From Ophelia neglecta (Eukaryota), in the NCBI GenBank assembly GCA_965285935.1, contig OZ260661.1:128154001-128218000 (forward strand): a stretch of 64,000 nt of DNA, read 5' to 3'. The position numbers and the translations under genes are program-made. Positions 36,869 to 62,796 of the stretch are shown in pieces; position 1 is the stretch's first letter; every line of letters starts with the position of its first letter. The notes under the pieces were generated by a model that searched no databases, was not told the DNA's origin, and worked only from the letters and a program-made list of their open reading frames with translations.

Positions 36869-37213
36869 ATAGATCTTTATTTCCTCCATTTTCTGAAGAG
36901 TACATTAGAAAATAACAAACTATAAGTGTAAATCAACTAAACAGAACATAGTGAAATTATAATCAAGGAACAATATATTTACAAGGTAACGGCCATATAA
37001 CAGGGAGCGATACTAGAATAATACACACGTATAATAAAAGAAAAGCCGGTTCACTTAGTCCACACAGTACTACTCACTACTCAAAAGCATGACCATTGAA
37101 TGTACCTTGCCAGCGATACGTATCACAAATATATATACAATTAGTAAAATCAAGGCGTACAATTATGTGCTGAATTATGACTGTTACAAATATATATTCA
37201 TAAGGTTATTGAT

Positions 37214-40200: not shown

Positions 40201-40731
40201 TTTTGATCTTCGGCTCTCTTTAAAGCCAACATAAGGGGGGCCATCAATCCTGACATTAAAGTCGCCAAGGATGATCACTTCACTATATATGCTTAAGTCA
40301 TTGTATAAAGTCTGCAGCTTATCAACGTGGTCTTCAAATAATGAGTCAGGTTTGTTTGTAGAGGGGAGGTATACATTTAACACTGTTAAGTAGTGCCTCT
40401 CACTCTCGTTTAGTGTAATTTGAAGTCCACATATCCGGTCGTCCTGAAAGTGTTATCTCTTTATATTATTGGACAACGCTTTTTTCCATAGGAATCCAAT
40501 TCCTCCTTTTCCCCTACGGTACGGGTCGAGTGGGTCTAGGCAAGAGTCAGTAATGCCCCACCCTGAATAACAGGGACTTATGGAGTCTAGGACCTGGGTG
40601 CTATTGGGAAACAACCAGTGTTCCGAGAGGGCGAGTATATCAACATCCTGGTGCATGAGGAGTTTATCAATGTATACAGCGCTCCTTATGGCCCCTTGAC
40701 AATTGAAGCTGGCCAAACTCAGTTTTTCCAT
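37214..40731 (-). pseudogene. LINE ORF2 (AP endonuclease + reverse transcriptase + C-terminal CCHC), about 1170 codons, two lesions
   Basis: SFNCQG, LSEHW, GGIG, NVYLP, GDFN, RIDH, SDHLP; KAPGHDG, RGITLL, FLDSATAFD, VRQGS, QADD, CHLC..H..C. In-frame TAA at 40455-40453 and a 1-nt loss in a T-run near 39710 (KPFG versus expected KPFWKN). Confidence 0.93.
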
Positions 40732-40762
40732 TTTACTTTGTATTCTAATAGCCATAATTACA

Positions 40763-41504
40763 TTAGTGGTCGTTTCTGTCATACCACTGACGGGCGTACT
40801 CGTTTTCGGGCCAAAACCCTTTGCTACACACTAGTCCTGAGAACTGAGGTTGGACACGGATGAGAGCGGCCTGATCGCCTGTCTTTCTGCTATGAAAAAG
40901 TCTACATTCCAGGCACTCTACGCCTTTGTATTTCAGGAAATCTAGCAGTGATTTAGTATCGACCGCAGTGTTAATGTTGCCAATGTATAGTTTAACACTT
41001 TCAGGTGGGCTCGTCGTTCTATACCTAGTCGAACGTGTCCATAACCTCGTAGGCCCATGTGCCCTGATATCATTTGGCTCCTTCTCGGGCTTGCGTGTAC
41101 TTGTTATCACGGGTATTGGCTTGGGGCTCGTTTCATAGATATGGGTCCTCGTCGGTTCCTTGCCGGTGACAATCCCGGGTACTTCTGATTGTGGATAACG
41201 GTTATGCTCTACCTTGTTTGTCTCAACCGCTAGCTTATCAATATCTTCAAAAATGCGAAGCATAAGCTGTCCATTTGTGCCCCAAAGATTATTTTCTTCC
41301 TTCTCGAATGTATTAAATTTATCTTTCAGAGTTTTGTGGTTGTATTTTATAACATTCATGGATCTTCCATTGGCTTCCTTTTCACTGTTTATTTTTATTT
41401 TCAGATCATGAATGGAATCTTTTAGTCTCTTGACGTCGGATAGGAGGCCCGGGTCATCTTCCTTACACGGCTTATTTTTTACCTTATTTACTTCTTGGAA
41501 TACT
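40763..41504 (-). CDS. LINE ORF1 C-terminal part (coiled coil + RRM-like), 5'-truncated
   Basis: Frame open from the 5' junction (FQEVNKVKNK..) to the stop at 40763; KLYIGNI..LLDFL....V....C..FWP....RQW is typical of LINE ORF1 ends. Confidence 0.8.
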
Positions 41505-41657
41505 TAGTGTAAGAAAGTGTATAATCTAAATATTTCTGATGTAGAAATATATATGTATATGTTTGCTGATTTTTATTAACTTCTAGCTTAGCATTATAGC
41601 ATACATATAATATTTTCTCTGTAACTTTACCTCTTTTTTTTCTGTAGGAATATATAT
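41505..41657. repeat. Right copy of 153-bp target-site duplication (left copy 36716-36868)
   Basis: 152/153 identical by eye; single mismatch at 36794 (A) versus 41583 (C). Confidence 0.93.
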
Positions 41658-41949
41658 TATATGTAGTATTTATCTAACATGAGGCAAACAGCCTGTGAGT
41701 TAGATGATACAATCTGGAGTTACATAGTGGTGGTGCGAGAAGATGACAACCCATTTTATGAATTCTTCACAAAGTAAGATTACAAAATCGAAATGTTTAA
41801 TAGTCAATGATATTACAAGTAGGCGATAGGCTTACAGCCACAAACACTGTTATCTTCAAACAATCTGAGTGAAATATATATCTTTTAAAATCTCACTGGA
41901 CGAGAAATAATCCACAAAATCATCACTTGACTTGCAATGTAAGTAACTA

Positions 41950-42560
41950 TCTATAATTTTGGTTGCCTTTTTTTAAATATATTTAAATTGCCAAATTAGT
42001 CAAAGCTTTGACATTGATAGATTGAATCAACAAAATATACTTCTGATAACTGGGTCTACTACTATAAAATCTGGGTATATACCTAGCCCTTAACTCAAAA
42101 TAAAAGCACTATTCAACCACAAAATGGTATTCATCCTCTAAATTATTACACATGATGCATGTTCTGTCAGAGTACTGGAGAGGCGGTCTACGCCATGCAC
42201 CAGTCTCATTGTGTAAATTATGATTTCTCGTTCGGAATTTACTTATGATTAAAGCTTTATCAGGCCGAAGTTTTAACATATGAAAAGGCATTTCTAAAGG
42301 CCTATCTATTTCTACATACATATGACCTCAGCTTGAACTTTCAAAATTTAAGCACCACTCTTGTCAATAACAATCAGATAATCTCTGTTTTAAAATGAAC
42401 AAAAATACATTCATACTCCCTGCTCCCTAAATAAACCGTACATCCCCATACCTATATTCACACAACATATCTCTCACCTGGGTATCCCAGGTTATTCCTT
42501 TGGTCGAATTCTTTAGCGCATTATATAGATTGAAAGGCAATTTATGCTGGTTTAGTTGTA
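41950..42560 (-). mobile_element. Old LINE 3' fragment (duplicated at about 58370-58975)
   Basis: WDTQVRD.LCEY, LKQRLSDC, ISKFRTRNHNLHNETGAWRRPP..RTCIMCNNLEDEYHFVVE. Confidence 0.85.
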
Positions 42561-43137
42561 GGGAACTACTTCTTACCAAATCGCCATTCCCCCTCCTAGT
42601 TCGAGCCCAACCTCAACCCTTCCAGACCGTCATACCTTGTGTACCTGCGTACATTCTTTGTTTTTCATATTTTGTAAAATGTGTGTGAATATTTCAGCGA
42701 ACTGTCCCCGGCCACATTGCTCGGTGTTGTTCGTGAATATCTAGAGCCTTGGCCAACTTCTCCTTTCAAATCCGGAAGATCAATGAATGTTAACAATATA
42801 TAGCCCAGCACGGCGGTTTAAAGTGAGAGATTAGCCAAATGAGCTTCCAGACATTTCCCTATTAAAGGTCAAATTGATTAGCAATCTTATTCTGTCTCTT
42901 GGCCATTCACGTCTTTTCATACAATTTAATTGGGTTTTTCCGCCAGGCGTCAGGGTAACCATCATCGTTTCCTAGGCATGTCCTCCTTGTTAAAGATTCC
43001 GTCGATCTATATGTTAATCCAAATCCCTACCTTCCACTAAATGTCAAACACAGTTTGTTTATGAACTCTTTGTGTTTTAATGCGTCTATCTATATCTATG
43101 AGGACATACATAGCCAACAAAACATTGTCAGCAATGG

Positions 43138-43382
43138 GGCATACTGGAAAACCTGATACGAAATACGAAGGAAATACGAGATACACAGATACGAAAAAAA
43201 TAAGATAGAGTTGGGTTATGACAGGGTTAGGGGTAGGGTTAATGTAGCAACCTAACTAAATCATATCTTACTTAACCCTTCACCCTAACCCTAACCTAGT
43301 CCATATGGCTACGTTTTAAACACCTGGTATCTCGTATCTGCGTCTCGTATCTGGTATTTCGTATCAGCTTTTCCAGTATGCC
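43138..43382. mobile_element. 245-bp MITE, 9-bp TSD, internal telomere-like repeats
   Basis: TIR GGCATACTGGAAAA(C/G)CTGATACGAAATAC (28/29 match); TSD CAGCAATGG at 43129-43137 and 43383-43391; single empty site at 59543-59551. Confidence 0.95.
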
Positions 43383-44860
43383 CAGCAATGGCAGCCTTTC
43401 AGATGTCAAAAGTGAGAACTCAGCTTGAAATTCGGTTTCTGTAGTCCCTTGACGTTTCCTTGTGGCGTCTTGGGTTTCTAGCCTTGAGGATGATGGCTGA
43501 AGACGGCATTTAGTCATCCGGTCTGTCGGACAAAGCGTTGTCTATGAGGCTAGATTGACAAGACTACTGTCATAGTACATGAAATGCTGAACCCGCGGGT
43601 AACATGCAGAACCAAACTAACATTTGTTTATACATAGTCATAAGACTAACAACATGTTATCTCGGATTTTTATTAACCATTCACATTCGCGCTACTTTTG
43701 TTATTTGCTAGCCATCTGCTTTATTTGACCGCGAGCGTGTTCCTCGGCAACGTTCAATTACTAGTATTGTTCCTGACGAAATAAGGAGCTGGCATATTAA
43801 TGGTAGTTTTTTGCTGTACACAGAATTCATCTGATAAGTCTTGTACTCTTACTGCCATTGCTACTACGTTCACCAGATTAACATGTGATTCTGTTATTCC
43901 CCGCGTAAAGGAGACGGGTAACTTTGAAGATGGGTGACCTTCATACGACCTTCATACGACAAAATAGATTAACCCCAGCATACAGGGTGTGAACTTCGAG
44001 ACTTGTGGTCTTTGAAAGAGCATGTCCTTTTCTGTCTGAATTAAACAAAATGCTCGTAGCCTAATGTGTCTTATTATAAACATTATTATAAAACAACGTG
44101 TTAAATAATGATTAATTAGAAGAAACAGGTTGGTAACTGATTAAAAATCAGAATAAGAAATATTTATTTCACCCAAACATCAAAGCATACAATTTATACT
44201 AACATTCATATTTAAAATAGGGAAATTATACAAAAAATTGAGCAGGGATGACTTATAATAAGATTTATAATACATTTCCAGCCCTAGCGGCGGGGCCACT
44301 TTACATTTTGATATATTAGTAGGTAAAAGTATTTTGTTTGTGTGCCCAATGTTAGTCGTATTTTTGTTTTATAATGTGACAACAAAAGCTGCAAGTTAGC
44401 TCGAAATTATTAAGAAGGCACTTAAAGAGTATGATATTAATGCCAAAATACAATTTAATTTTAGTATACTACATATTTATTTTACTAAAATCAGCTTAGG
44501 AAAATTGCTGTCCCTATTCCAGATACAAACTCTCCGTACCCTATGGAGAAAATCAATGATTCCTATAAAAGGATCCAGCCAAGATTGTGGAAATCTTGGC
44601 CCTGGAAATATTAACAACGTACGTAATATGTATTAAAGGCTTAGCATAGGGAACTTTTAACCACGTGAACATATCTCTACAGATCATATAAACATTAACA
44701 CTGCTAACCTTCTCCCAAGTATATGCTCTTCGCCAATTCAAAACATTAATACACAGAAAACTAGATCTTGCTTAAGCATGTTTTTTTTTGTAAAACCTAG
44801 ATATTTTTGGCGGAAACTATGAGATATTAGTTTTCATAACTTATGAAGAATTAAGATGAC

Positions 44861-45780
44861 TTTAATTCTCAGTATCCAAGATACCTCAAACTAGTAGTAC
44901 ATGATTTTTCGAACTTCCTGGTTGACCACTCGTTCTGCTGTCACTATGCAGCCCAGGTACCCAGCTTCATTGAATGAACTGCTCTTTGAATTTTAGATTC
45001 GGAGTTCTATACCAAAATACGAAATATGACCTGGTCGACTTACAGAGAAAGCTGTGGAAATATATGAGTAGAGCCGTCAGATCATGACATTTCTGAGGCA
45101 AACATGAAACTTGTTTACAACATATTATAACATCCATTTAACCTCAACTAACCAAACTTCGCAAAACAAATATAAATTCTGCCAAATTTCTAGCCGTGAC
45201 GTGGTAAAATAAAAACTAGCACTTTCAACCTTTCAACGTAGTTTAATACCAAGCCAGCGGTGTCCATCTTTGGTAAGCTTGATTGGTGTTCACAGGGAGT
45301 GGCACAAACCCTCCCGTGTCAATGTGCCTGAAACAAGGGCATCCCTTGATTTCAAAATCTTTTGATATGTTTTCCTTTATCAATCGCGCAGCTGCTTTAA
45401 AGTTTTAACAACTAAAACGAGTGTCCCATAAACCGCACGTCCTTCTCGATTCGACATGTTTGTAGTAGAAAATTTGCATATAATATTGTATCGAAATTGT
45501 GACTGCTTCATTCTGGCAGTTTGTCTGCTATCTTTATGGAAAACATTGTCCCAAAATATGCATTTGGCATGGCTAAATGGCACATTGATTATATTATTAA
45601 CGCTATTGTGTTTGCATATAGGCTAGAGACGTTTATGAACTAAATTTCTAGGCATATGCCTACTACAACCAGCATAACTTCTCTCAGTGTTCGATTCTGG
45701 TACTATCAGCGCCGCCGTCGGACATCCATCAGCGCCTCCAAGCGTCTAAAAATGTGTTAACTTGGATACTGAGAATTAAA
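44861..45780. mobile_element. About 920-bp non-autonomous TIR element, copy 1
   Basis: Perfect 20-bp inverted repeat TTTAATTCTCAGTATCCAAG (44861-44880 / 45761-45780), with TTAA at both ends. Confidence 0.75.
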
Positions 45781-45844
45781 ACATTGTAGGCATATATATA
45801 TAGTTTATATATCAGTGCAAAGACTTACTTCTGTGTGTTTTTTA

Positions 45845-46581
45845 TCATTCTAAACAGTGTCCCGAAAACTAAGTAAATGTTGTCTGTTTTCCATTTCCCG
45901 TCTGGACCGTCCAGCATCAGTGGCATTATTTCCTTTGAATTCTTCATCATTCGAAACTACATAATGAAAATTTGAGCTTTTGAATCCGCCATTTAACAAA
46001 ATCTTTTACAAATATTACCAAAATACTTAGTTGCAAACTCCCAATAATGGCCATTGCTAGTTGATTACGTCAAGTTATTTTCAAATAAGCATAGTGCATC
46101 CCAGATTGATAGGTCGAAACGTACCGTCATATACGGACCCTTGGTCATGAGATGAGCACTGAAGGAATACATGCCACTAATAGGACACACGAAATGACCT
46201 GTACCCGGGTTGTATCCATAGTGACTTGGAAATCCGCCATTCTCATTTAGGACAAGCCTGCTAAACCGAATTGTCGTCCCAACGCCAAATGCCACTGACC
46301 TAGCTTGGCCTACGCCTAGTTTCTCATAAAAGCCTAAGGTGGAGTCATGTAAAAATATCAGATTTATTGGCATTCAGAATAATTATGCATGGCTACAGTA
46401 AAAGGCTAGCAACCTTTGCGATAGTTTCGAATGAACCAGTGAAAATAATTTGACGACGGAATGTATTAACTGCTTTGTTATACGATTTAAACAATCTGTA
46501 GATATACTGACCTATTTTGCTAGTTTCTGCTCCGCTTACAATAACCGTCAGGAAAACGAAAAGAGCCCAGACTTTAGTCAT
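45845..46581 (-). pseudogene. C1q-domain gene copy G1, inactivated
   Basis: Exons 46581-46512, 46333-46125, 45956-45845; nearly identical to G3, but exon 3 lacks 83 bp (G3 62015-62097) and has TGG>TAG. Confidence 0.9.
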
Positions 46582-46975
46582 TTTGACTGCTATTTCACAG
46601 CTGTCAGAATAGTGTGTGTCCCAAAAGATTGAAGATCGCACGCTATATCCCTTAATAATAAAATATGTAGGCATAACAACTAAATACCGTGCTTATAAGT
46701 TCATAATAAGTAAGTGTATTTACCTTATTCCCTCATCAATAACACATACAAATGTCAGTTATGCCAATATTAAAGCTTAAAGGAAGCAAGAATCGGTTGC
46801 ACGCGGTGTCTGAAATCACCAAATCCATATATCGTGTCCTTTGTTAGTAGATTTAACATGATTTTTTGTTAATTCACATGTGTATATATAGTTTGCATAT
46901 CAAGTTATTGTGCTAATACGATTTAACCAGACTATGAAAGCAACATGTATTTTCGTCTCCTTAAAGTGCCTGTTA

Positions 46976-47391
46976 GGGACGGACCATTCAATATCTGGGG
47001 GGGGGGGGGGGCGACAATTTTTTTAAAAAAAATTGTTTGTTTCTGGTTATGCATAAAAAAATTGTTTGTTTCTGACTCTGGAAAAAATAAATTGTTTGTC
47101 TGATATTTTCTTTAAAAAAAATTGTTTGCATAAGCACTGATCCATTCTTCGATGGATTCTAAAAAAAAGGTTGGCCTCACGGCCAAATAATGACTTAACA
47201 CATAGGGTATAAAAGTTTGATCAAGGCTAGGGAAAAAAATATTTGACAGAGATTTGTTAGAAAAAAAAATTGTTTGCTTCCCAGATAGGAAAAAATAAAT
47301 TGTTTGTTTTTCCAAAGCTAGAATTTTTTTTGTTTCACTAGAAAATATTATGTCGCCCCCCCCCCCCCCCCAATATCTAATGGTGCGTCCC
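46976..47391. mobile_element. PIF/Harbinger (Tourist-like) MITE, copy 1
   Basis: TIR GGGACG(G/C)ACCATT..ATAT..(G)n, TSD TTA; empty site CCTGTTAACATGC near 51700; internal AAAAAATTGTTTG repeats. Confidence 0.9.
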
Positions 47392-48155
47392 TTAACATGC
47401 TATGCCTTTCTTCTGCGGTTTTGAAAGGCCTATCATATATTCCATATCAAATACTTCTTCTTAAGTACAATTTTTTAACGACCGTGCACTCAGAATTCTG
47501 AAACTTCCAAGACAACTATTCAACGTGCTGTTTTCTATCAGGAGTGATTAAATAAAGGGGGCTTTTTTGTAGCTTTTGATTAAAAGCTGAGGTGATTGCT
47601 GAGGTACATCTCAAGATAGGACACAACTTTAGAATTACATAACCTTGTTTAACCATAAAATTAACCCAAGTCCTAATTGTGGTGGTGTAGGGCTTTTGGG
47701 GAGAATTTAAAGCTAGGTTTGCACAGGAAGGAGTCACTGCTCAATCGGGATCGGAAGCCTTGGAGAGGGGGGGGGGGGGGGTTAGGCAAGGGAGGATTGG
47801 CTAGAAAATAGTATAACTGGTATCATGGATAGTTTTATAATATATAGTAATATTAGGTATAAAAATATATTTTTCGGCTCTATACCCTTACTGGGAAGTT
47901 TAATGAGTGGCGAGTGGCAAGAGAGAGCAGGAATCGGCTCGGGATCCGATGCGTTGCAGAGTGGCACTCGTGCAGGCCAAACGGAAGTATGCTCTGCAAA
48001 AGAAATGCCACAGAACAATGTAATGTTTGCAGCCAATGTAGACAGCCATTTTCGGTTTTGAGATGTTATACAACACTTTTTGTCCAGATTTGATTTAGCT
48101 TTAGTAGTTATCGTAAATTCATTTATTTATTTATTTATTTATTTATAACTGCTAA

Positions 48156-48630
48156 TAGTTATCTCGTAATAAGGATAAACTAAGTCGTAATAAAGAGATA
48201 GTTATCTCGTAATAACGAGATCCTAAGTCGTAATAACGAGATACTTAATCGTAATAACGAGAACTAAGTCGTAATAACGATATAGTTATCTCGTAATAAC
48301 GATATAGTTATCTCGTAATAACGATATAGTTATCTCGTAATAACGAGATACTAAGTCGTTTTAACGAGATAGTTATCTCGTAATAACGAGATAGTTATCT
48401 CGTAATAACTAGATACTAAGTTGTAATAACGAGATAGTTATCTCGTAATAACGAGATAATAAGTCGTAATAACGAGATAGTTATCTCGTAATAAGGAGAT
48501 ACTAAGTCGTAATAACAACATAGTTATCTCGTAATAACGAGATACTAAGTCGTCATAACGAGATACTAAGTCGTAATAACGAGATAGATATCTCGTTATA
48601 ACGAGATAGTAAGTCGTAATAACGAGATAA
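48156..48630. repeat. Palindromic 21/22-bp two-variant minisatellite
   Basis: Units GTTATCTCGTAATAACGAGATA and CTAAGTCGTAATAACGAGATA, about 22 copies. Confidence 0.95.
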
Positions 48631-49755
48631 TATTTTTTCTATGGTGGCACATATCGGCTTCCGTACTGATCCAGCTTAAATATATATTTTGAAATGCGAA
48701 ATGCTTTCTTTTCCATAACCATGAGGCGTGAAATCGAACCGTCACGGTAGGCCAGACTGCCTGGGAGGGGCTCCCTACTCCTCCAGGAAGTGAGCCTCCA
48801 CACCTCTCCAACTTGGGGAGGGGGGGGGGGCAAAAAGCTAATCCTGTCTGGGTAATATGGTACATTAACAGTAGTGCCCCTCCCCCTCCCCCCCCCCTCC
48901 CCCTCCTTCCTCTTCCCCGACGACAGCATTCTGCTCCCCATGGAATATTGTAGCTGGTATCTTGTTTTATAATAATATTATATATAAATAAAGGAATACA
49001 AATATTGTTTAATGCATTTTTATTGCAAATCATCGACAAAGCGGAAAGAATCAAGCAATAATTAAATGTCTTAAATGTACTCAAAGGGCAAAAATGAAAA
49101 TTAGTCCAGGAACATGAATAGTGAAAGTGCTAAATGTACACGCTTTGGAATTATTTTCCTGACCTTGATCCGCGCGGTCATGTAAACGAACAAATTGAAA
49201 AGTTATTGCATAGCAGTTTTATACGTTTAGCTCAATATCTGTCAAATTTCGTTAAATAATTTATTGCTAAGTCGGCTCGCAATTAGTCAGCAGAAGCTTT
49301 AAAAGATTGATATTATTGTCAAAATATAATTTAATCTAAGCAGGTTATTATAAATTATAGCACTTAGGTCAACTTCAGAAAGTTGCAGACACAAATGTTT
49401 CTCAATATTCGATAAACCCAATCACTGATAACTGTAAAAGGACTTCGTAATCTCGGTGGAATTTTTGGTCCTGAAATGTAAACACAATATTAACAGCAAA
49501 TGAACATACTGCATGCGTACGATATCACCCTTATTAAACCCCTTTCGTTTATCACAGCGGAGGCTTTTACTACTGGTCTTCACTTAATTAAGCTTTTCTC
49601 CCATTGTAGCGATTAAAAATATGTTTCCTAATATCTATATTTTCTGGCACAACCTGATGGAGGCTTATCCACCAAGGCTTTTGAGAATTGACATCACAAA
49701 GATCACATAGTGTATATTTAAAGGTATACCAGTGCAGACTTACATTCGGGGGATG

Positions 49756-51305
49756 TTAATCAGCCCCAACAAGATGTCCAGAGAACCATGACCACATATG
49801 ATGGAGAGTAGCTGAACCACCATGCGTGCCAACGACGAATACATTCTCTCCCCGTTTACAGTGGATGTCTATGGTACCGCCGTCTGTTTTCCATCTTTTG
49901 TCGACCCCTTCCAGCAGCAGATCCATGATATCTTGTGCATCTTTCTTCATTTTAAACTTTAAACAAAAAAATCAGCCATATAACCAATATTGAGCATTTA
50001 TTCCCTTTTATTCGTAAAACATATCCATTCTATACATTTAATTAACCATAAAAACCTGTGAATAATGCAAGAATCAATTATAACCCCCCCACAAACCCAC
50101 CGCCACCGTCACGCCAACCCCACCCCACCACCAGGCATACACGTATTATCTGAAACCTACGCGTTGATAAGTGAGGCAGAGACTACTACCGCCAATTTAC
50201 GGGAATAAAAACAAATAATATAAAATATTTTGTTGCTAGCGCCACCTTCTTTGTGGCGGAAAATATAACAGATAGATAGATTATATATATAACCGATATG
50301 CTATTAACTAAAGACATAAGTTAGAATCGTGAAATGACCAGTTCAAATAAGCCCATGTGGCATGACTACTAAAATCAGGCATACCCGAGCATGACAGGAG
50401 CCATTTGCATGGGGTAAAATGGAGGGCGATCATCCCAGGCGTATAAAAGATGAACCTGTTCGGATGCCGCTAGGCAAGACTTAAACAGTGTAAAGCACAG
50501 CGGGTCCCTTGGTCGAACTTCTTGAACTTAGGACCGGCTGTTTGGGGTCCATTTTATTGTCCAAAAGATACAATATATGGAGATAACGTCTGGGTTATAG
50601 TCCCCAAAGTTTAGTAAAAGTGTTACCCCACCCTCCACTGCAGTGATAAACTCGAAACTTACAGTAGTATTCACATTCAAAATTATACATCGCCAGTTGA
50701 TTATACGGCAGCAAAATACTCTCTGTTTCAATAGGGCTACGAATAGTTTTACAAATTTATATGGCACCAGGTACCTCCATTATCCGATCCCTAGTCATGA
50801 GATGGGCACTAAAGGAGTAAATGCCACTGACAGGACACACGAAATGACCTGTAGCCGTGTTATATCCGTAGTGACGTGGAAATCCGCCATTCTCATTTAG
50901 GTAAACCCTGTCAAACCGGACTGTCGACCCGACGCCTATATTCTTTCGATGAGCTAACTTAGCATGGAAGCCTAAAGTTGATAAGGCCAAAGGTCAGATT
51001 TATTCGTATTCGACCCGACGCCAAATGTCACTGACCTAGCTAGGCCTAGTTTCGCATAAAAGCCTAAAGTTGCGTCATGTAAAATATCAGATTTATTGGC
51101 ATTCAGAATAATTACGCAGGTTAGAACAAATGGCTAACAACTGTTTAATTAGTTTCGAATGAAAATAATTTGACGACGGAATGTATTAACTGATTAGTTA
51201 TAAGATTCAAACAAACTATATATAGATATACTGACCTATTTTGCTAGTTTCTGCTCCGCTTACAATAACCGCCAGGAAAACGAAAAGAGCCCAGACTTTA
51301 GTCAT
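49756..51305 (-). CDS. Secreted globular-head C1q-domain protein G2 (155 aa if the distal acceptor is used)
   Basis: Exons 51305-51236 (signal peptide, G|GTCAGT), 50971-50775 (TTTAG|, GAG|GTAC), 49956-49756 (AAAG|). Phases 1/0 join in frame: MTKVWALFVFLAVIVSGAETSKIGFHAKL..VRFDRVYLN..YNTATGHFVCPVSGIYSFS..GENVFV..WFSGHLVGAD. Confidence 0.8.
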
Positions 51306-52405
51306 TTTGACTGCTATTTCACAGCTGTCAGAATAGTGTGTGTCCCAAAAGTTTGAAGACCGCACGCTATAACCCTTAATAAAATATGTAGGCATAAAAA
51401 ATAAATACCGTGCTTAGTTCATAATATGTAAGTGTATTTACCTTATTCCCGCATCAATAACATTTCGGTCAATACAAATGTCAGTTATGTCAAGAATAAA
51501 GCTTAAAGTAAGCAAGAATCGGTCGCACGCGGTGTCTGAAATCACCAAATCCATATATCGTGTCCTTTGTTAGTAGATTTAACATGATTTTTTGTTAATT
51601 CACATGTGTATATGTAGTTTGCATATCAAAAGTTATTGTGCTAAGACGATTTAACCAGACTATGAAAGCAACATGTATTTTCGTCTCCTGCAAGTGCCTG
51701 TTAACATGCTATGCCTTTCTTCTGCGGTTTTTAAAGGCCTATCATATATTTCATATCAAATACTTCTTCTTAAGAACAATTTTTTAACGACCGTGCACTC
51801 AGAATTCTGAAACTTCCAAGACAACTATTCAACGTGCCGTTTTCTATCAGAGTGATTAAGTAAAGGGGGCTTTTTTGTAGCTTTTGATTAAAAGCTGAGG
51901 TGATTGCTGAGGTACATCTCAAGATAGGACACAGCTTTAGAATTACATAACCTTGTTTAACCATAAAATTAACCCAAGTCCTAATTGTGGTGGTGTAGGG
52001 CTTTTGGGGAAAATTTAAAGCTAGGTTTACACAGGAAGGAGTCACTGCTCAATCGGGATCGGAAGCCTTGCTGCCCCAAATTTGCGATGGGGTAGAGGGG
52101 GGGGGGGTAGGCAAGGGAGGATTTGGTAGAAAATAGTATTACTGGTATCATGGATAGTTTTATAATATATAGTAATATTAGGCATACAAATATCTTTCGG
52201 CTCTATACCCTTACTGGGAAGTTTAATGAGTGGCTAATGGCAAGGGGGAGCAGGAATCGGCTCGGGGTCCGATGTGTTGCAGAGTGACACTCGTGCAGGC
52301 CAAACGGAAGTATGCTCTGCAAAAGAAATGCCAAAGAACAATGTCATGTTTGCAGCCAATGAAGACAACCATTTTGGGTTTTGAGATGTTATACAACACT
52401 TTTTC
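51011..52405. repeat. Partial third copy of block C (C1q upstream region + exon 1 + intron 1), without the Harbinger MITE
   Basis: Collinear with 46280-48085 and 62500-64000. Confidence 0.9.
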
Positions 52406-53199
52406 ATAGATGACTAACTGCTTCCGGCATTCTGGCAAAGTCCCAACATGCAATACCTGGAAGTCATTATATTCATCTATCGAAGAATCTATATGCCCTT
52501 TATACACCCGACTGGGTTTTAAGGATTTTTCCGATAGGCATGTTTAGAGCTAGCTATAGGCTTAGGGTATATTGTAACACTACTTACTACTATTGAGGCA
52601 ACATGGTAATGTCAAATAATAATTAGAGGACATAAGTGGATAACTGCATGTGATGTAAAATTTATGATAAGAATCTGAATCAAAGATATTTATTTTACCA
52701 AAATATCAAACAATACAATTAATACTTACAGTCAGAATAGCAAGACATTTTTACAACATTGGGGCATAACAGGGATAACTCCCTGTAGAATTATGTTTAA
52801 TCGCACGTCTCGGATCCATCTGTTGTTCCAATAAATTTCATAAGTGACCGTCTTATGCTATAGAGCCCACAACATATCTGTCGAAGTTTGTTAAATAATG
52901 AAATCAATTAAGTTGTAAGTAAGCTTAAACTTATCATAATTTTGTCCAAATTTGATTTAGCTTTAGTATTTATCGTAAATTCATTACACTTAAGTCAGTT
53001 GTAGAAACTGTTGTGATACAAAGCTTTTTTATATCCAATAAAATCACTCATTGCTGTAGAGATTTGACAATCCCTGTGAAAATGTTGAAGCTGCAAATGC
53101 AAACAAAATATTGACGTAATATAAAGGGAAGTAATATAATAAATGATAGTATATGAAATGAACTTTATTACCCATTTCAAAATATTACAATTGCTGGCT

Positions 53200-53780
53200 T
53201 TTCCTTAAGTATGCTTTTCTCCCATTGAAACAATTGGAACCAAAACATATACCTTTTTGCAAATATTCGTTGGCACAACCTGATGTACGCTGTTTGCACA
53301 CAACCGTTGTAGACTTTTGATCAAAAGGAGTCACATAATATATATAGTGCACAGACTTCCGTTCTTCCATATACGAGCCCTTGGACATGACATTAGTACT
53401 AAAGGAGTACATCCCACCGAAAAGACAGACAAAATGACCTGTGCTCGGGTTATATCCATATACTCTAGGAAGTCCGCCATTTTTATTTAGGTAAACTGTG
53501 CTAAACGGGACTGTTGCCCCGACGCCTGTCATCTTTGAAGGTGCTAACTTAGCATGAAAGCTAAGTTGATTAATGGAAGTGGTCAGATTTATTAGCATCC
53601 AAATTAATGACCCAGTCTATAGGAAATGCCACGCAAGCACATTTGTAAAATCATAGGGCTAGAATAACTTGACAACGGAATATTTAGGCTTTAAGATTTA
53701 AATGATCGATAACTATACTGACCAATTATGTGAGTCGGTGCTCTGGTTAGGACAAACCCCAATAATACCAATAATACATT
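53200..53780 (-). pseudogene. C1q-domain relic G4
   Basis: Exon-2 homolog at about 53560-53365 (FHAKL..GVGATVPFSTVYLNKNGG..YNPSTGHFVCLFGGMYSFS). Exon-1 remnant with donor G|GTCAGT at 53723 has no in-frame ATG; acceptor is 1 nt out of phase; exon 3 is missing and exon 2 runs into G2-like 3'UTR sequence. Confidence 0.8.
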
Positions 53781-54869
53781 TCTAGAATAATTTTTTCTAT
53801 TTTTGGCTCCGAATAGCCCGAATGGTTAGGGAAGTATTTTAAGGCGAGTCCTTTCCTATTTATTCATAACCTAGCATTCTATCCGGATCCTTCCCGAGTG
53901 CAGCCAAACGTCTCGCTGGTTCAATATCATACCAGATTCTTTTTCGAACACTCTCCGAACGCTTTCCGAGACACTTCCGAATGGTGCAAACGATTCTTGA
54001 GTAGTCAGTTTTCTATCCGTTCGCTTTCTGGCTGCTTCTCGGATCACAAGAATATAAACCGACAACCGAGCGAATAGTTAAAAAAGGGTAAGAATTTTCA
54101 GCATCACAAGAAATTTGAACTGCCACGAAGGAAGGGAAAGAAGGGGGTGCCAAAAGGGCAATAGGAAAGAGGAGGCCGATAGGGGCAGCAGCAGTGTGAG
54201 GTGTATGGTGCAGTGGAGCCGGAGGTGGCCGAAATCCATGCGCCGCCAGACGGACCCGTTCACAGAGATATATGTTATCATATTTTAACATAATATTGAC
54301 AAGGACAATGAATTTTTTGGCTATATTCCAATATGGGCTGCAGACTTATGTCATTCAGGTTCTTCACATTATTTTGTTCACAATAATGTACAAATAATAC
54401 GCTTTCATTGCGTTTTTTAATAATTTCAACCAAATAAAAAGAAATATAAGTGCAAAGTAGTGCCATAGGTGTTCACAGAAAATATGCAAAGATGATAAAA
54501 CAACTATGACTATTTTGCTAATTATTTGTACCTGTTTTCTTAGCTTATGTGGACAGTATTAACGGGAATGTTAGCTCTGTCAAAACACAGGCAACTCCAG
54601 CGTAAAATCGGGAGTGGATACACGGCAGATAAAGGGAAATCATTGATCAAGAATGGTCCATTAATCGGTCTGGAATCTTCAGGAAGCCTAGGGCAGTAGT
54701 ATGCTGGCCGGGAGGAGGAGGGGGAGGCATACCGGTGAATGGGGCATACTGCCGAGGGAGGGGAAGATTTACTACTCCAAATGGGACACAGTAGAAACGT
54801 TCTTCCTCCAGGGGTAGGTTCAATATGGTAGCTACAATCTCAGTTAGGTTTATGATAACATATTTATAC

Positions 54870-57620
54870 AGGAAACCTGAGACTATTGTTTCTACATTTA
54901 AATTCATGGACCCGAGCAGGTATATCTTCATAATTATATTTAAGGTGGTAATACTTTAAATAATAATTTTCGAATATCTCTCGCTTTCCTTATTCATGTT
55001 ATGCGACCAGCCATTACTTTTCTCACTAGTGATAACTAAGCCAGTTTAGCAATCATTACATGATACACCAGACAGTCTTAATAGAAGGTATTGTATTTAA
55101 TCAAGGCGAGCTTGTTTTGCACACGGGGAAACGCCTCCTTTTTAGCATAGCTTCCGTTGACCTGGTGGCTTTGACCTTGAGGTTTGCTGTTTTATATGTT
55201 TGTATTTTTGTTCTCACAAGTATTCCTTTTCTGTTGCAGCAAACCTTGGATTATTTTGATCCTATAAAGCCTTGAAGTTATATTCGGTCGGTAACACTGT
55301 GGGACCTGTGAGATGTAGAAAGCCGGCTTCTGAATAATCATATATGTCATTGGCAGGTTTAGTTTGCAAAAAATATGCCATAGACGAGCCGCCGTGTCAT
55401 TATTGGATGCTGAGGGGTTTGCGGATTGCCTGTTTTGAAGACTCAAGTTTAAGCTTTATTAAACCATACAATAGTAGTTGCCATGAACTGTTTTGAACTG
55501 TCTTGGAATGGTAAAAAAAATGGTAGGGGTCCTAATATCGCTCGTTGTTTAATTCCGGGCAGAATTACACGTAGGCTTAATACACCCAGCATGTAGGTTT
55601 ATTTAATTAATGAACAATGTAAAGACGATTAAATAAATACTGGACAATATGCAAAATAGCCAAACATAGCCCTACAATAGTATTAAGTTTATTATGTAAG
55701 ACAAGGTGTTAAGTATATGTATGTTCTTGTGTCTCACTGATATTTATAACCATGATTGGCCATTTATAAACTTTTATTGATAAATAGGTGTTATGTTAAG
55801 TGGCCTTATTAACGATGAAACGGATATGTAGACAATGCCAAGATACCGAGGAAATGTTTGGGAGGTCTATTTTAATTATTTGGTTCGATGTACAGGATAT
55901 TGAGAGGTCAGGCTGATAGGTTGAAACGTACGTTTACTGTGCGTTCACTCTTTCACACAATAGTCCAATGAGCTGCCTCTAAATACATAAGGACCCAATC
56001 ATAAGATAAAAGACATTTATTGTTTGGCCCGCCAACTTCTTTTTTGACTTCATTTACACAATCAAAAACACTAAAAACACAAAAATGTACATATCAAAAT
56101 CGTTAGAACCAAGTTGAAATAATAATTTGAGATGATATAAAGCACCATATTAACATCTACAATGAGAATGACAAATGAATAATAACAGTAAAATTAATCA
56201 ATGAATATTAACAATGATGTATATAATAAGTAAAGAAAAACACCACGTGGTCTGCAATGTTTTGTTAAAAACACCATAATACAGTACAACTTTAAATACC
56301 TAGGTTTGGGTTGAATTACTGTGAACATACGGGACTAACCACTCTTTGGTGGATGTCAAAATAACGATTTGAGAGCCACTTGGACATCTTTGCCTATATG
56401 CATAGATTCAGACAAAGCATTTCAAGTGCGCTCATATTTAGTGTAAATATATTAAGTAATGAAATGCGATTATGAGGGGTAGATTTTGCGACAGTTTCAT
56501 GCACATTGTAATCCATGTAGGCATCAGACTAAAATGAAAAATATATATTCGGATAGCTCTTTATACATTAGTCATTTATAAAACATGTGTTTCATTCACA
56601 TTAACAGGTACTAAGAAAACACCAGAAAAATACATTCCTACTGCTAAATCTCCATATCATTTTTCCAAGCTCTTCCAACCTCTTGCTGATCACTGTTTAT
56701 TTAATTGAAATAAGGCTTTGTTGTTAGAAATGTGGCTGCTGGTTGGCAGTAGACAATATTTCAGATTGGTCCTATGTGGTGGAAGAAACCTTGTTGTGCA
56801 TTATTCATTGCTGGACATCCTCTGATGGGTATATAAATGGATTTCATTTTCCACCTCATGATTAAAAAAAACAGCCAATGCTTTTTATCAGCTGGTACAA
56901 GATTTTTTAGCATGTAGTCAGATCCCACTAGAGGTGCTGTTAAGACGTAATATTGAAATAGCATGACGGATGCCAATTTGGGTTAATACATATCCTTAAA
57001 GATAAGCTTCGCAAAAACGTGTGAGAAGTGTTGGATTTTCTGATCCATTTGTAATGTAATGGCCTATTGACAGCCAAGAGTCATCAAATTTACCACGACA
57101 AAAGCCTTTATAGCTTTGAAATGCACGACAATACCTCGTTTATCGGTCGAGCTTGGAACTAGAGTAGTAGTTTTAGATGTTATATGAAGCTTATGATTCG
57201 TGTATATAGAATCTTTATTTCTTATTTAGACTATCCAATGTGGTGTTCTATAAGCATTAAAGGACGAGAGGCAGGGGCAACACCCGAATGTATAGGAAAG
57301 TGAAATGGGAGGGGTGGATGTGGGAAGGCACTGTAGAACAGAAAGCATCGGGAATAAAGTCTCGGAACAAGTATCCGGAAAAAAAAACATAGCAGGAAAT
57401 AAGGCATCTAGAAATAGTAGCAGTTTCAAGCCAATGTAATTTTTGTATGATTTTTTTTTCTCATTTCGCCATGTCAATGATTTGTCAAAAAACCTTTGGT
57501 AGACTAACACAATAAAAAATGGTGGCCTTAGTATAGCAATTAATGAAGACTTTTAATGAAGGTGTGGTTGGCATACGAACCTACTCCACTAAAACTGAAG
57601 AATGCAGGGAAATTGTTTTT
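54870..57620. repeat. Duplicated block B, copy 3 (lacks the first 1.2 kb)
   Basis: Collinear with 26361 onward and 33889 onward. Confidence 0.93.
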
Positions 57621-58120
57621 GTCTAGTGTTAGAAAGCGTATAATCATAAATATTTGTCTGGTGCAGAAATTTAAATGTATACAATGGTTGATTTTTATTA
57701 ACTTCTAGCTTGGAATTATAGCATACATGTATTATTTTCTCTGTAACTTTCCCTCTTTTTTCAGTAGGAATATATAGTATTAGCAGCCAATGTAATTTTT
57801 GTATGATTTTTCTCCTTCCGCCATGTCAAAAAACCTTTGGTAAACCAACCCATTAAAAATGGTAGCCTTAGTATAGCACTTACAAAGACTATTAATGAAG
57901 ATATGGTTGGCATAAGAACTTACCCTACTAAAACTGAAGAATGTAGGGAAATTTCTTGTTTTCTAGAGTAAGAAAGCATATAATCCTAAATATTTGTCTG
58001 ATGTAGAAATATATATGTATATGTTTGTTGATTTTTATTAACTTCCAGCTAAGCATTATAGCATAGGCCTACATGTAATATTTTCTCTGTAACTTTCCCC
58101 TATTTTTAGGAATATATAGT
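57429..58120. repeat. Diverged local tandem duplication, about 356-bp unit x2
   Basis: AGCCAATGTAATTTTTGTATG starts at 57429 and 57785; single-copy in B2 (36522 onward). Confidence 0.85.
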
Positions 58121-60991
58121 ATTGGTAGAATTTATTCAACATGAGATAAAACAGCCTGTGAGTTGGATGATACAATCTGGAATTACATCGTGGTGGTGCG
58201 AGGAGATGACAACACATTATATGAATTCTTCACTAAGTAAGATTACAAAATCGAGATGTTTAATAGTCAATGATATTACAAGTAGGCTGAGTGAAATATA
58301 TATCTTTTAAAAGCTCACTGGACGAGAAATAATCCACAAAATCATCACTTGACTTGCGATGTAAGTAACTATCTATTATTTTGGTTGTGCTTTTTTTATA
58401 TATATATAAATTGCCAAATTAGTCAAAGCTTTGACATTGATATATTGCATCAACAAAATATACTTCTGATAACTGGGTCTACTACTATAAAATCTGGGTA
58501 TATACCTAGCCCTTAACTCATAATAAAAGCACTATTCAACCACAAAATGGTATTCATCCTCTAAATTGTTACACACGATGCATGTTCTGTCAGAGTACTG
58601 GAGAGGCGGTCTACCAGTCTCATTGTGTAAATTATGATTTTTCGTTCGGAATTTACTTATGATTAGAGCTTTATCAGGCCGTAGTTTTAAAATATGAAAA
58701 GGCCTTTCTAAAGGCCTATCTATTTCTACATACATATGACCTCAGCTGGAACTTTCAAAATGTATGCACTACTCTTGGCAATGACAATCAGATAATCTCT
58801 GTTTTAAAATGAACAAAAATACATTCATACTCCCTGCTCCCTGACTAAACCGTACATCCCCAAACCTATATTCACACAACAGATCTCTCACCTGGGTATC
58901 CCAGGTTATTCCTTTGGTCGAATTCTTTAGCGCATTATATAGATTGAAAGGCAATTTATGCTGGTTTAGTTGTAGGGAACTACTTCTTACCAAATCGCCA
59001 TTCCCCCTCCTAGTTCGAGCCCAACCTCAACCCTTCCAGACCGTCATACCTTGTGTACCTGCGTACATTCTTTGTTTTTCATATTTTGTAAAATGTGTGT
59101 GAATATTTCAGCGAACTGTCCCCGGCCACATTGCTCAGTGTTGTTCGTGAATATCTAGAGTCTTGGCCAACTTCTCCTTTCAAATCCGGAAGATCAATGA
59201 ATGTTAACAATATATAGCCCAGCACGGCGGTTTAAAGTGAGAGATTAGCCAAAGAAGCTTCCAGACATTTCCCTATTAAAGGTCAAATTGATTAGCAATC
59301 TTATTCTGTCTCTTGGCCATTCACGTCTTTTCATACAATTTAATTGGGTTTTTCCGCCAGGCGTCAGGGTAACCATCATCGTTTCCTGGGCATGTCCTCC
59401 TTGTTAAAGATTCCGTCGATCTATATGTTAATCCAAACCACTACCTTCCACTAAATGTCAAACACAGTTTGTTTATGAACTCCTTGTGTTTTAATGCGTC
59501 TATCTATATCTATGAGGACATACATAGCCAACAAAACATTGTCAGCAATGGCAGCCTTTCAGATGTCAAAAGTGAGAACTCAGCTTGAAATTCGGTTTCT
59601 TTAGTCCCTTGACGTTTCCTTGTGGCGTCTTGGGTTTCTAGCCTTGAGGATGATGGCTGAAGACGGCATTTAGTCATCCGGTCTGTTGGACAAAGCGTTG
59701 TCTATGAGGCTAGATTGACAAGACTACTGTCATAGTACATGAAATGCTGAACCCGCGGGTTACATGCAGAACCAAACTAACATTTGTTTATTCATAGTCA
59801 TAAGACTAACAACATGTTATCTCGGATTTTTATTAACCATTCACATTCGCTAGCCATCTGCTTTATATGACCGCGAGCGTGTTCCTCGGCAACGTTCAAT
59901 TACTAGTATTGTTCCTGACGAAATAAGGAGCTGGCATATTAATGGTAGTTTTTCGCTGTTTTACACAGAATTCATCTGATATGTCTTGTACTCTTACTGC
60001 CATTGCTACTACGTTCACCAGATTAACATGTGATTCTGTTATTCCCCGCGTAAAGGAGACGGGTAACTTTGAAGATGGGTGACCTTCATACGACCTTCAT
60101 ACGACAAAATAGATTAACCCCAGCATACAGGGTGTGAACTTCGAGACTTGTGGTCTTAGTAAGAGCATGTCCTTTTCTGTCTGAATTAAACAAAATGCTC
60201 GTAGCCTAATGTGTCTTATAAAAACAACGTGTTAAATAATGATTAATTAGAAGAAACAGGTTGGTAACTGATTAAAAATCAGAATAAGAAATATTTATTT
60301 CACCCAAACATCAAAGCATACAATTTATACTAACATTCATATTTAAAATAGGGAAATTATACAAAAAATTAAGCAGGGATGACTTATAATAAGATTTATA
60401 ATACATTTCCAGCCCTAGCGGCGGGGCCACTTTACATTTTGATATATTAGTAGGTAAAAGTATTTTGTTTGTGTGCCCAATGTTAGTCGTATTTTTGTTT
60501 TATAATGTGACAACAAAAGCTGCAAGTTAGCTCGAAGTTATTAAGAAGGCACTTAAAGAGTATGATATTAATGCCAAAATACAATTTAATTTTAGTATAC
60601 TACATATTTATTTTACTAAAATCAGCTTAGGAAAATTGCTGTCCCTATTCAAGATACAAACTCTCCGTACCCTATGGAGAAAATCAATGATTCCTATAAA
60701 AGGATCCAGCCAAGATTGTGGAAATCTTGGCCCTGGAAATATTAACAACGTACGTAATATGTATTAAAGGCTTAGCATAGGGAACTTTTAACCACGTGAA
60801 CATATCTCTACAGATCATATAAACATTAACACTGCTAACCTTCTCCCAAGTATATGCTCTTCGCCAATTCAAAACATTAATACACAGAAAACTAGATCTT
60901 GCTTAAGCATGTTTTTTTTTGTAAAACCTAGATATTTTTGGCGGAAACTATGAGATATTAGTTTTCATAACTCATGAAGAATTAAGATGAC

Positions 60992-61911
60992 TTTAATTCT
61001 CAGTATCCAAGATACCTCAAACTAGTAGTACATGATTTTTCGAACTTCCTGGTTGACCACTCGTTCTCCTGTCACTATGCAGCCCAGGTACCCAGCTTCA
61101 TTGAATGAACTGCTCTTTGAATTTTAGATTCGGAGTTCTATACCAAAATACGAAATATGACCTGGTCGACTTACAGAGAAAGCTGTGGAGATATATGAGT
61201 ATAGCCGTCAGATCATGACATTTCTGAGGCAAACATGAAACTTGTTTACAACATATTATAACATCCATTTAACCTCAACTAACCAAACTTCGCAAAACAA
61301 ATATAAATTTTGCCAAATTTCTAGCCGTGAATGTGGTAAAATAAAAACAAGCACTTTCAACCTTTCAACGTAGTTTAATACCAGGCCAGCGGTGTCCTTC
61401 TTTGGTAAGCTTGATTGGTGTTCACAGGGAGTGGCACAAACCCTCCCGTGTCAATGTGCCTGAAACAAGGGCATCCCTTGATTTCAAAATCTTTTGATAT
61501 GTTGTCCTTTATCAATCGCGCAGCTGCTTTAAAGTTTTAACAACTAAAACGAGTGTCCCATAAACCGCACGTCCTTCTCGATTCGACATGTTTGTAGTAG
61601 AAAATTTGCATATAATATTGTATCGAAATTGTGACTGCTTCATTCTGGCAGTTTGTCTGCTATCTTTATGGAAAACATTGTCCCAAAATATGCATTTGGC
61701 ATGGCTAAATGGCACATTGATCATATTATTAACGCTATTGTGTTTGCATATAGGCTAGAGACGTTTATGAACTTAATTTCTAGGCATATGCCTACTACAA
61801 CCAGCATAACTTCTCTTAGTGTTCGATTCTGGTACTATTAGCGCCGCCGTCGGACATCCATCAGCGCCTCCAAGCGTCTGAAAATGTGTTAACTTGGATA
61901 CTGAGAATTAA
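60992..61911. mobile_element. About 920-bp TIR element, copy 2
   Basis: TTAATTCTCAGTATCCAAG at 60993-61011, inverted at 61893-61911. Confidence 0.75.
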
Positions 61912-61976
61912 CACATTGTAGGCATATATATATAGTTTATATATCAGTGCAAAGACTTACTTCTGTGTGTTTTTTA

Positions 61977-62796
61977 TCATTCTAAACAGTGTCCCGAAAA
62001 CCAAGTAAATGTTGGATGAAGGGTAACTGGACCCTTCGTCCGGCCTTCGACATAGACAGTTTCTCCCTTACGACATTGTATGTCTATGGTCCCTCCGTCT
62101 GTTTTCCATTTCCCGTCTGGACCGTCCAGCATCAGTGGCATTATTTCCTTTGAATTCTTCATCATTCGAAACTACATAATGAAAATTTGAGCTTTTGAAT
62201 CCGCCATTTAACAAAATCTTTTACAAATATTACCAAAATACTTTGTTGCAAACTCCCAATAATGGCCATTGCTAGTTGATTACGTCAAGTTATTTTCAAA
62301 TAAGCATAGTGCATCCCAGATTGATAGATCGGAACGTACCGTCATATACGGACCCTTGGTCATGAGATGAGCACTGAAGGAATACATGCCACTAATAGGA
62401 CACACGAAATGACCTGTGCCCGGGTTGTATCCATAGTGACTTGGAAATCCGCCATTCTCATTTAGGACAAGCCTGCTAAACCGAATTGTCGTCCCAACGC
62501 CAAATGTTACTGACCTAGCTTGGCCTACGCCTAGTTTCTCATAAAAGCCTAAGGTGGAGTCATGTAAAAATATCAGATTTATTGGCATTTAGAATAATTA
62601 TGCATGGCTACAGTAAAAGGCTAGCAACCTTTACGATAGTTTCGAATGAACCAGTGAAAATAATTTGACGACGGAATGTATTAACTGCTTTGTTATACGA
62701 TTTAAACAATCTGTAGATATACTGACCTATTTTCCTAGTTTCTGCTCCGCTTACAATAACCGTCAGGAAAACGAAAAGAGCCCAGACTTTAGTCAT
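61977..62796 (-). CDS. Secreted globular-head C1q-domain protein G3, intact, 157 aa
   Basis: Exons 62796-62727, 62548-62340, 62171-61977 with GT-AG sites, 474 nt in frame: signal peptide MTKVWALFVFLTVIVSG, then GFYEKL..IRFSRLVLN..YNPGTGHFVCPISGMYSFS..GETVYV..WFSGHCLE (gC1q aromatic motifs; no collagen tail). Confidence 0.9.

What the first reader, a model, noticed from the sequence alone, without database searches (positions are those of the whole stretch)
45845..62796. Four-copy secreted C1q gene cluster caught in birth-and-death evolution
Seen: four minus-strand paralogs with the same architecture (signal-peptide exon, phase 1; two gC1q exons, phase 0), which the ORF track shows only as fragments. 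G3 is intact, G1 is a near-identical dead twin, G2 is divergent (73/118 aligned residues identical to G3 from the GVG motif onward), and G4 is a truncated relic. Known: collagen-less secreted gC1q proteins are lectin-like pattern-recognition proteins expanded in lophotrochozoans. Inference: a rapidly turning-over immune or secretory family driven by segmental duplication.
Basis: partly seen in the sequence, partly recalled or inferred. Interest (0 to 1): 0.7.

Follow-up and report, generated by a model that had tools for sequence, protein, structure and literature searches.

The report
Six-copy secreted C1q cluster with chimera
This is a real but mostly ordinary tandem cluster of six small C1q-domain genes (two intact, three broken, one hybrid) that likely encode secreted recognition proteins; the hybrid copy is stitched from two neighbours and would make a protein only if splicing skips the first of two acceptor sites.

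Summary
In detail: four minus-strand, three-exon genes (signal exon, phase 1; two C1q exons, phase 0). G3 is intact, G1 has an 83-nt frameshifting deletion, G4 is a relic, and 73/118 is exact. Three corrections. (1) The cluster runs past the window: a second relic (G5) and an intact gene (G6) make six. (2) G2 is not just divergent but a chimera: 5' flank, signal exon and intron 1 come from the G1/G3 type (96-99% in flank and exon 1), the domain exons from G6 (91%). It has two acceptors; the first gives a stop at codon 54, the second an intact 155-aa protein. Its amino-acid changes avoid conserved columns (3/54 versus 20/77), so the second is probably used. (3) G1/G3 divergence rises from 1-2% at the gene to 7-14% further out, suggesting conversion as well as birth-and-death. 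The cluster is one of many: 51 hits for this subfamily and 491 C1q candidates genome-wide. Oyster C1q clusters with the same dynamics are published. The host may be an annelid (three weak hints). Expression and ligand are untested. Verdict: new member of a known kind, modest interest.

The parts
61977..62796 (-). G3, intact type-A gene: exon 1 62796-62727 (signal), exon 2 62548-62340, exon 3 62171-61977; 157 aa
   Evidence: PF00386 on exon 2 at 30.2 bits
45844..46581 (-). G1, type-A pseudogene: exon 1 46581-46512, exon 2 46333-46125, exon 3 from 45956 with an 83-nt deletion at 45883/45882 and a frameshift
49756..51305 (-). G2, chimeric gene: type-A exon 1 51305-51236; type-B (G6-like) exon 2 50971-50775 and exon 3 49956-49756; 155 aa through the distal acceptor
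51011..51063 (-). Dead type-A exon-2 stub in G2 behind the proximal acceptor; the A/B junction lies at 51011/51010 with one base of microhomology; use of this acceptor ends in a stop after 53 codons
   Evidence: one contig of run X1 covers 50846-51039 with no difference
53330..53792 (-). G4, type-C relic: exon-1 remnant without ATG, exon 2 with one base lost at the acceptor, exon 3 deleted so that exon 2 runs into 3'-flank-like sequence
   Evidence: PF00386 28.5 bits
63198..63541 (.). Non-autonomous inverted-repeat element (38-nt arms, apparent TAA target duplication) about 400 nt upstream of G3
   Evidence: the site is empty upstream of G2
46975..47392 (.). The same element at the same site upstream of G1 (42-nt arms)
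54857..54861 (.). Junction of the larger tandem duplication: the G3 downstream block ends and a copy of the G5 upstream block begins
48081..48665 (.). Junction between the G6-derived block behind G2 and the G1 upstream block, filled by a short-unit tandem repeat (48155-48632)
33876..45882 (-). Downstream block of G1, paralogous to 54857-62014 behind G3, interrupted by a LINE at 36868-41505

Best explanation
This is a six-copy tandem cluster of signal-peptide-plus-single-C1q-domain genes that likely encode small secreted recognition proteins and likely grew by unequal recombination, with G2 a hybrid gene that probably works by splicing to its second acceptor. Shown: three old types lie in the order G6 (B, intact), G5 (C, relic), G3 (A, intact), G4 (C, relic), G2 (A 5' end on B domain exons), G1 (A, frameshifted). 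Inferred history: an ancestral B-C-A block; type C broke before it was copied, since G4 and G5 share the acceptor lesion and the loss of exon 3; a staggered exchange between A exon 2 and B intron 1 put B's domain under A's 5' flank and signal exon; a later conversion or crossover made about 4.5 kb around G1 and G3 nearly identical; G1 then lost 83 nt. Inferred function: after signal cleavage each intact product folds as a gC1q jelly-roll, probably trimerises, and binds glycans or other surfaces through variable loops, so new copies supply new specificities.
For: Gene models and splice sites. PF00386 above cut-off for 4 of 4 exon-2 sequences in the window. The natural read-through frame of paralog L018 folds at mean pLDDT 82, low only over the intron-coded part, and matches gC1q structures (best E 1.1e-7, TM 0.73-0.80 by target). 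G2 identity by segment: upstream 96% and exon 1 97-99% to G1/G3 against 61% and 71% to G6; exons 2 and 3 91% to G6 against 76% and 65% to G3. G2 against G6: 23 of 131 residues differ, 3 of 54 conserved and 20 of 77 variable columns (Fisher P 0.002; neutral simulation P 0.001), with no stop or frameshift although the flanks carry 17 indels in 1437 aligned bases. On the G2 branch alone, 2 of 14 changed codons fall in conserved columns (P 0.03). dN/dS 0.38 for G3 against G6. G1/G3 divergence is 0.6-2.5% from 63671 to about 58750, 4-7% to 57964, mostly 5-14% further downstream (one 500-nt window at 1.8%) and 4-7% further upstream. The same architecture and dynamics are described in oyster (PMC6835236).
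Against: No transcript, protein or ligand was observed, so secretion, acceptor choice and function are inferred. Overall dN/dS of G2 against G6 is 0.91, which also fits relaxed selection; a neutral sequence would escape stop codons 25% of the time. Four adjacent changed codons at the end of exon 2 may be one compensated frameshift: without them the contrast is 3/54 against 16/73 (P 0.012), the excess of replacement over flank divergence drops to P 0.054, and the G2-branch test to P 0.09. A matrix built from 26 family acceptors scores both G2 acceptors poorly (-4.0 and -1.6; G3's only acceptor also -4.0), so it cannot pick one. The one contig over the A/B junction reaches 29 letters past it, short of the tool's 31-letter bar.
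Confidence: 0.72

Rival explanations
1. G2 is a young pseudogene: the proximal acceptor is used, the message carries an early stop and is degraded, and the open distal frame survives by chance. Only G3 and G6 would be alive.
For: The proximal acceptor keeps its AG and a branch-point-like CTGAT and scores like G3's only acceptor. dN/dS 0.91 against G6. The G2 branch is about twice the G6 branch on the tree, 0.074 against 0.039.
Against: Changes avoid conserved columns. No indel in 393 coding bases against 17 in 1437 flanking bases. The dead A stub and intron 1 have drifted 12% from G1/G3 while the flank and exon 1 have drifted 3.5-3.9%.
Confidence: 0.25
2. The proteins are not immune receptors but structural or secretory components such as mucus, tube, cuticle or mineral matrix, and the turnover is neutral copy-number churn in a recombination-prone region.
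For: The whole neighbourhood is tandemly duplicated, including blocks with no C1q gene (23-36 kb in the window and the 74-119 kb equivalents beyond it). C1q-domain proteins are also reported in shell formation and connective tissue (PMC10672478 passages). No characterised close homologue was found.
Against: Loop-centred replacement with a conserved core fits ligand diversification. Bivalve sghC1q proteins with tested activity bind microbes or glycans (PMC10672478 passages).
Confidence: 0.3
3. The G3/G1 doubling is an assembly artefact: two alleles laid in tandem.
For: G1 and G3 differ by only 1-2% over about 4.5 kb, within the allelic range of many marine invertebrates (recalled).
Against: Flanks diverge by 7-14% with separate insertions (a LINE in one block only); G4/G5 and G2/G6 differ by 4-9%. 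Contigs of the DNA runs hold both the G2 and the G6 form of the exon-3 end, and break at the G1 deletion point (45882) and its G3 equivalent (62097).
Confidence: 0.05

Closest known systems
Bivalve sghC1q genes, e.g. the 111 of Crassostrea virginica (PMC6835236; passages and the Discussion section read)
   Same: Signal peptide followed directly by one C1q domain; monotypic tandem clusters; near-identical recent copies; most sites conserved and a few diversifying; unequal crossing-over as the inferred driver.
   Different: A lineage-specific subfamily with about six extra residues (NGGxP motif) relative to solved vertebrate C1q domains. No close protein relative in a 1.84-billion library: best single-domain hits near E 1e-9, the named ones being bivalve C1q proteins. 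The passages read describe no two-parent chimera with competing acceptors. The host may not be a bivalve.
Characterised invertebrate C1qDC lectins: OXYL (feather star), MkC1qDC (mussel), molluscan sialic-acid-binding lectins (PMC10672478, passages)
   Same: Small secreted globular-head C1q proteins without collagen.
   Different: No sequence-level orthology shown; ligand of the present proteins unknown.
Vertebrate gC1q domains (C1QTNF5, C1QL1-3, collagen X/VIII NC1, C1q, cerebellin)
   Same: Same fold for paralog L018 (Foldseek E about 1e-7); exon 2 of G2 matches by sequence.
   Different: 12-22% identity; the present genes have no collagen stalk or N-terminal extension.
Birth-and-death multigene families (recalled model)
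   Same: Intact genes, pseudogenes and young duplicates side by side; 6 of 30 fetched loci broken or incomplete.
   Different: Local homogenisation (G1/G3) and inter-paralog chimera formation add a concerted, shuffling component.

Membership tests
sghC1q (secreted globular-head C1q) | C1q domain (PF00386 / gC1q jelly-roll) | tested here: met
   Exon 2 above cut-off in 4 of 4 window copies; exon 3 weak but in register; the fold of a paralog's read-through frame matches gC1q structures. G3 and G2 themselves were not folded whole.
sghC1q (secreted globular-head C1q) | N-terminal signal peptide | tested here: met
   By inspection and hydropathy only: basic start, hydrophobic core, small-residue cleavage region in exon 1 of G1, G2, G3, G5, G6. 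No signal-peptide predictor was available.
sghC1q (secreted globular-head C1q) | No collagen, coiled coil or other domain between signal and C1q; single domain | tested here: met
   The domain starts at residue 25 of 155-157 aa.
sghC1q (secreted globular-head C1q) | Expressed and secreted | not testable with these tools
   Needs RNA or protein data for this organism.
C1qDC lectin / pattern-recognition protein | Binds glycans or microbial surfaces | not testable with these tools
   Analogy only (PMC10672478 passages).
C1qDC lectin / pattern-recognition protein | Homotrimer of gC1q heads | not tested
   No complex prediction was run.
C1q-like type I/II | Collagen or coiled-coil stalk before the domain | tested here: not met
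   No room for a stalk in the spliced models.
Birth-and-death family | Intact copies and pseudogenes coexist, duplicates of mixed age | tested here: met
   Three broken of six in the cluster; dS from 0.04 to above 1 among paralog pairs.
Birth-and-death family | Copies diverge independently, without homogenisation | tested here: inconclusive
   Old types stay distinct, but the G1/G3 divergence gradient suggests a conversion tract.
Birth-and-death family | Paralogs cluster across species rather than within | not testable with these tools
   No related genomes are held.

The most novel reading that the evidence does not exclude
G2 is a live chimeric gene: a staggered exchange put paralog B's binding domain under paralog A's promoter and signal exon, and the choice between two acceptors sets its output while its loops diversify. 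Further rearranged alleles segregate at the locus: contigs show a B-type exon-1 donor joined to A's 5' flank that is not found in the assembly. All this sits within a bivalve-scale C1q expansion (hundreds of loci) in what is probably an annelid, a group reported to have few secreted C1q proteins.
Probability: 0.3. Interest if true: 0.5.

Novelty: new member of a known kind. Interest (0 to 1): 0.3.

Why it matters
Secreted C1q clusters with fast turnover are already documented in bivalves, so the cluster as such adds little. Its value is as a clean worked case. Breakpoints are readable to the base, and G2 gives a one-experiment test (RT-PCR across two acceptors 92 nt apart) of whether recombination between paralogs makes working promoter-swap genes in such families. 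If the host is an annelid, the genome-wide expansion would extend a pattern that one review treats as molluscan (PMC8878817 passage: annelids and brachiopods have very few secretory C1qDC proteins).

Tried and rejected
Expression: no RNA holder listed; the three runs listed behave as DNA, with introns covered and no splice joint among the joints shown (35 joints were not shown). Contig depths were not used as copy number. Word-index protein search with G3 exon 2 against longer proteins: 0 of 10 candidates scored. A codon-model run in IQ-TREE timed out; NG86 counts and FastTree were used instead. Alignment A1 misplaced the exon-2 ends and was not used. The acceptor matrix did not separate G2's two sites. 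Host group: the Shaw-channel search against longer proteins gave 0 of 548; the hemocyanin search found nothing and its control did not ring, so it shows nothing; 18S loci were fetched but there was no reference to compare them with; locus L051 was fetched and not analysed. Literature: (loop naming) returned nothing relevant, so the A-A', C-D, G-H names and their apical position are recalled; others (chimera, conversion terms; 3 papers listed; annelid C1q expansion; 4 and 13 listed) showed no title on these points, but only listings were seen for most, and subscription papers and supplements were not searched. Earlier scan notes: none found. Considered and dropped: that the start of type-A exon 2 was templated from the exon-1/intron-1 junction (two shared 10-mers); a local duplication of the KIGVG stretch explains it as well. 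Calcium-binding residues were not assessed. No complex prediction was run.

Full report
Observation. The window is G000:C1:128154001-128218000 of a 762-Mb animal assembly. Reading the minus strand gives four copies of a three-exon gene. G3 (62796-61977) has exons of 70, 209 and 195 nt and GT-AG introns of 178 and 168 nt, and encodes 157 aa. G1 (from 46581) is 98.6% identical in exons 1 and 2, but exon 3 lacks 83 nt and leaves frame, losing the last third of the domain. G2 (51305-49756) gives 155 aa, 73 of 118 residues identical to G3 from the GVG motif. G4 has no in-frame ATG, lacks one base at the exon-2 acceptor and has no exon 3. Exon 2 of all four passes the PF00386 cut-off; exon 3 of G2 and G3 matches the second half of the profile weakly, E 0.16-0.19.

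Fold and architecture. The spliced proteins could not be folded whole. Paralog L018 has an open frame through its 108-nt intron 2, and that natural frame was folded with a 51-row alignment: mean pLDDT 82, low only over the intron-coded part. It matches gC1q structures (C1QTNF5, C1QL1, collagen X; best E 1.1e-7). The domain begins at residue 25, right after a hydrophobic exon-1 peptide, so there is no collagen or coiled coil. This is the sghC1q class as defined in PMC6835236 (passage) and PMC10672478 (passage). The signal peptide is judged by inspection only.

The cluster is larger than the window. In the 150 kb of adjoining DNA fetched, tblastn found two more copies, both within 8 kb of the window end. 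G5 (window-equivalent 65530-65100) is a twin of G4 that keeps its ATG but shares the acceptor lesion and the loss of exon 3. G6 (71707-70043) is intact, 155 aa. The six copies fall into three old types: A (G1, G3), B (G6) and C (G4, G5), 70-78% identical in exon 2.

G2 is a chimera. Its upstream 300 nt and exon 1 are 96% and 97-99% identical to G1/G3 but 61% and 71% to G6; its exons 2 and 3 and the 600 nt downstream are 91%, 91% and 94% identical to G6. The junction is at 51011/51010, where 53 nt of type-A exon 2 meets the last 39 nt of type-B intron 1 with one shared base. G2 therefore has two acceptors 92 nt apart. The proximal one ends in a stop after 53 codons; the distal one gives the full protein. 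One contig of run X1 covers 50846-51039 without a difference, 29 letters past the junction and so just under the tool's 31-letter bar.

Is G2 alive? Against: dN/dS to G6 is 0.91 (dS 0.105, dN 0.096), compared with 0.38 for G3 against G6, and an acceptor matrix cannot tell the two sites apart. For: with conservation scored on 13 other paralogs, 3 of 54 conserved and 20 of 77 variable columns differ (P 0.002; neutral simulation P 0.001), and there is no coding indel while the flanks have 17 in 1437 aligned bases. Replacement at variable columns is 12.6% per site against 6.3% in flanks (P 0.005). Twelve of the 23 changes sit in three short stretches that lie at or beside the loops after strands 2-4, 49-59 and 136-141 of the model; their names A-A', C-D and G-H and their place at the binding apex are recalled. 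Leaving out four codons that may be one compensated frameshift weakens these results to P 0.012 and P 0.054, and the G2-branch test from P 0.03 to P 0.09. I put a working G2 at about 65-70%.

History (inferred). An ancestral B-C-A block; type C broke first; an 11.7-kb copy joined at 54857 and a staggered A/B exchange produced the second half. G1 and G3 differ by 0.6-2.5% from 63671 to about 58750, by 4-7% down to 57964, mostly by 5-14% further downstream (one window at 1.8%) and by 4-7% further upstream. That fits conversion or a later crossover over an older duplication. An inverted-repeat element sits at the same site upstream of G1 and G3 and is absent upstream of G2. A loose end at 51381 in all three runs (one sample, one study) reads as a B-type exon-1 donor joined to A's 5' flank; that string has no match in the assembly with two mismatches allowed, and a DNA search finds only the three type-A 5' ends in the window. 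This hints at another arrangement on another haplotype; it was not resolved.

Family context. G3 exon 2 has 51 matches among 62 candidates in the genome, 31 of them on C1. Of the 30 loci fetched, 24 gave an open exon 2 plus exon 3. Six were left out of the tree: L002, L013, L017 (G1, G4, G5), L024 (stop at the start of exon 3), L029 (no in-frame exon 2) and L012 (no exon 3 within the locus). A clear signal exon was found within 1.5 kb for 13 of the 24. Eighteen columns are invariant, including two cysteines. PF00386 gave 491 candidates, of which 150 were scored, all over the cut-off, mostly intronless frames near 420 aa on C5 and C12; two examined carry two scored C1q domains each. A profile of 18 exon-2 sequences found 660 proteins at E up to 0.001 but no close relative; the named ones among 8 C1q hits looked up were bivalve proteins.

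Host. Three weak hints point to an annelid: two erythrocruorin-linker matches, although linkers also occur in other phyla (PMC6400237, abstract only); the only two named hits among 26 for a Shaw-channel exon in the window are annelid; and the nearest Atlas cluster of a multi-C1q frame is most often annelid, with recognition below the tool's bar. I put this at about 65%.

Comparison with what is known. PMC6835236 (passages and Discussion) reports 476 C1q genes in oyster, 111 of them sghC1q, in tandem clusters attributed to unequal crossing-over with positive selection at a few sites. PMC4759782 (passages) reports 296 and 335 in two bivalves against 12 in a limpet. PMC8878817 (passages) says annelids have very few secretory C1qDC proteins. 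PMC8476170 (passages) gave no count. No supplements were read. The cluster is thus a new member of a known kind. The chimera with competing acceptors and the possibly non-bivalve host are the only points beyond the ordinary; expression and ligand remain untested. Interest 0.3.

Noticed in passing
window 36868-41505 (-): A LINE (endonuclease and reverse-transcriptase domains, frame broken into pieces) flanked by a 153-bp direct repeat (36716-36868 and 41505-41657, 99% identical) that resembles host sequence in the paralogous block; unusually long for a target-site duplication.
   Followed up: partly
G000 C5 (about 7-19 and 80-116 Mb) and C12 (about 44-70 Mb): Well over a hundred intronless frames of about 420 aa with tandem C1q domains; PF00386 gave 491 candidates genome-wide. 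Two were read: two scored domains each and a possible third, degenerate one at the start.
   Followed up: partly
window 51381 (loose end in runs X1-X3): Contigs join a G6-like exon-1 donor to the type-A 5' flank about 75 nt before the ATG; the string is not found in the assembly. Possible second chimeric haplotype.
   Followed up: partly
window 19362-20135 (-): Exon of a Shaw-type potassium channel (BTB_2/T1 domain), 44-66% identical to its hits.
   Followed up: partly
L018-L021 (G000:C1:126.17-126.22 Mb): Four nearly identical paralogs at about 16-kb spacing, a very young tandem array; their 108-nt intron 2 is in frame and has no stop.
   Followed up: partly
window 23173-36867 and window-equivalent 73940-119628: Further tandemly duplicated blocks without any C1q exon; the whole neighbourhood is duplication-prone.
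   Followed up: no
window 20-402, 828-1436, 6403-7162, 48155-48632: Short-unit tandem repeats; the one at 6.4-7.2 kb is GC-rich and opens long frames in all six phases.
   Followed up: no
window 62514 and 51035 (-): Type-A exon 2 contains an AG|GTCAGT motif identical to the exon-1 donor, a possible cryptic donor; its use would shift the frame.
   Followed up: no
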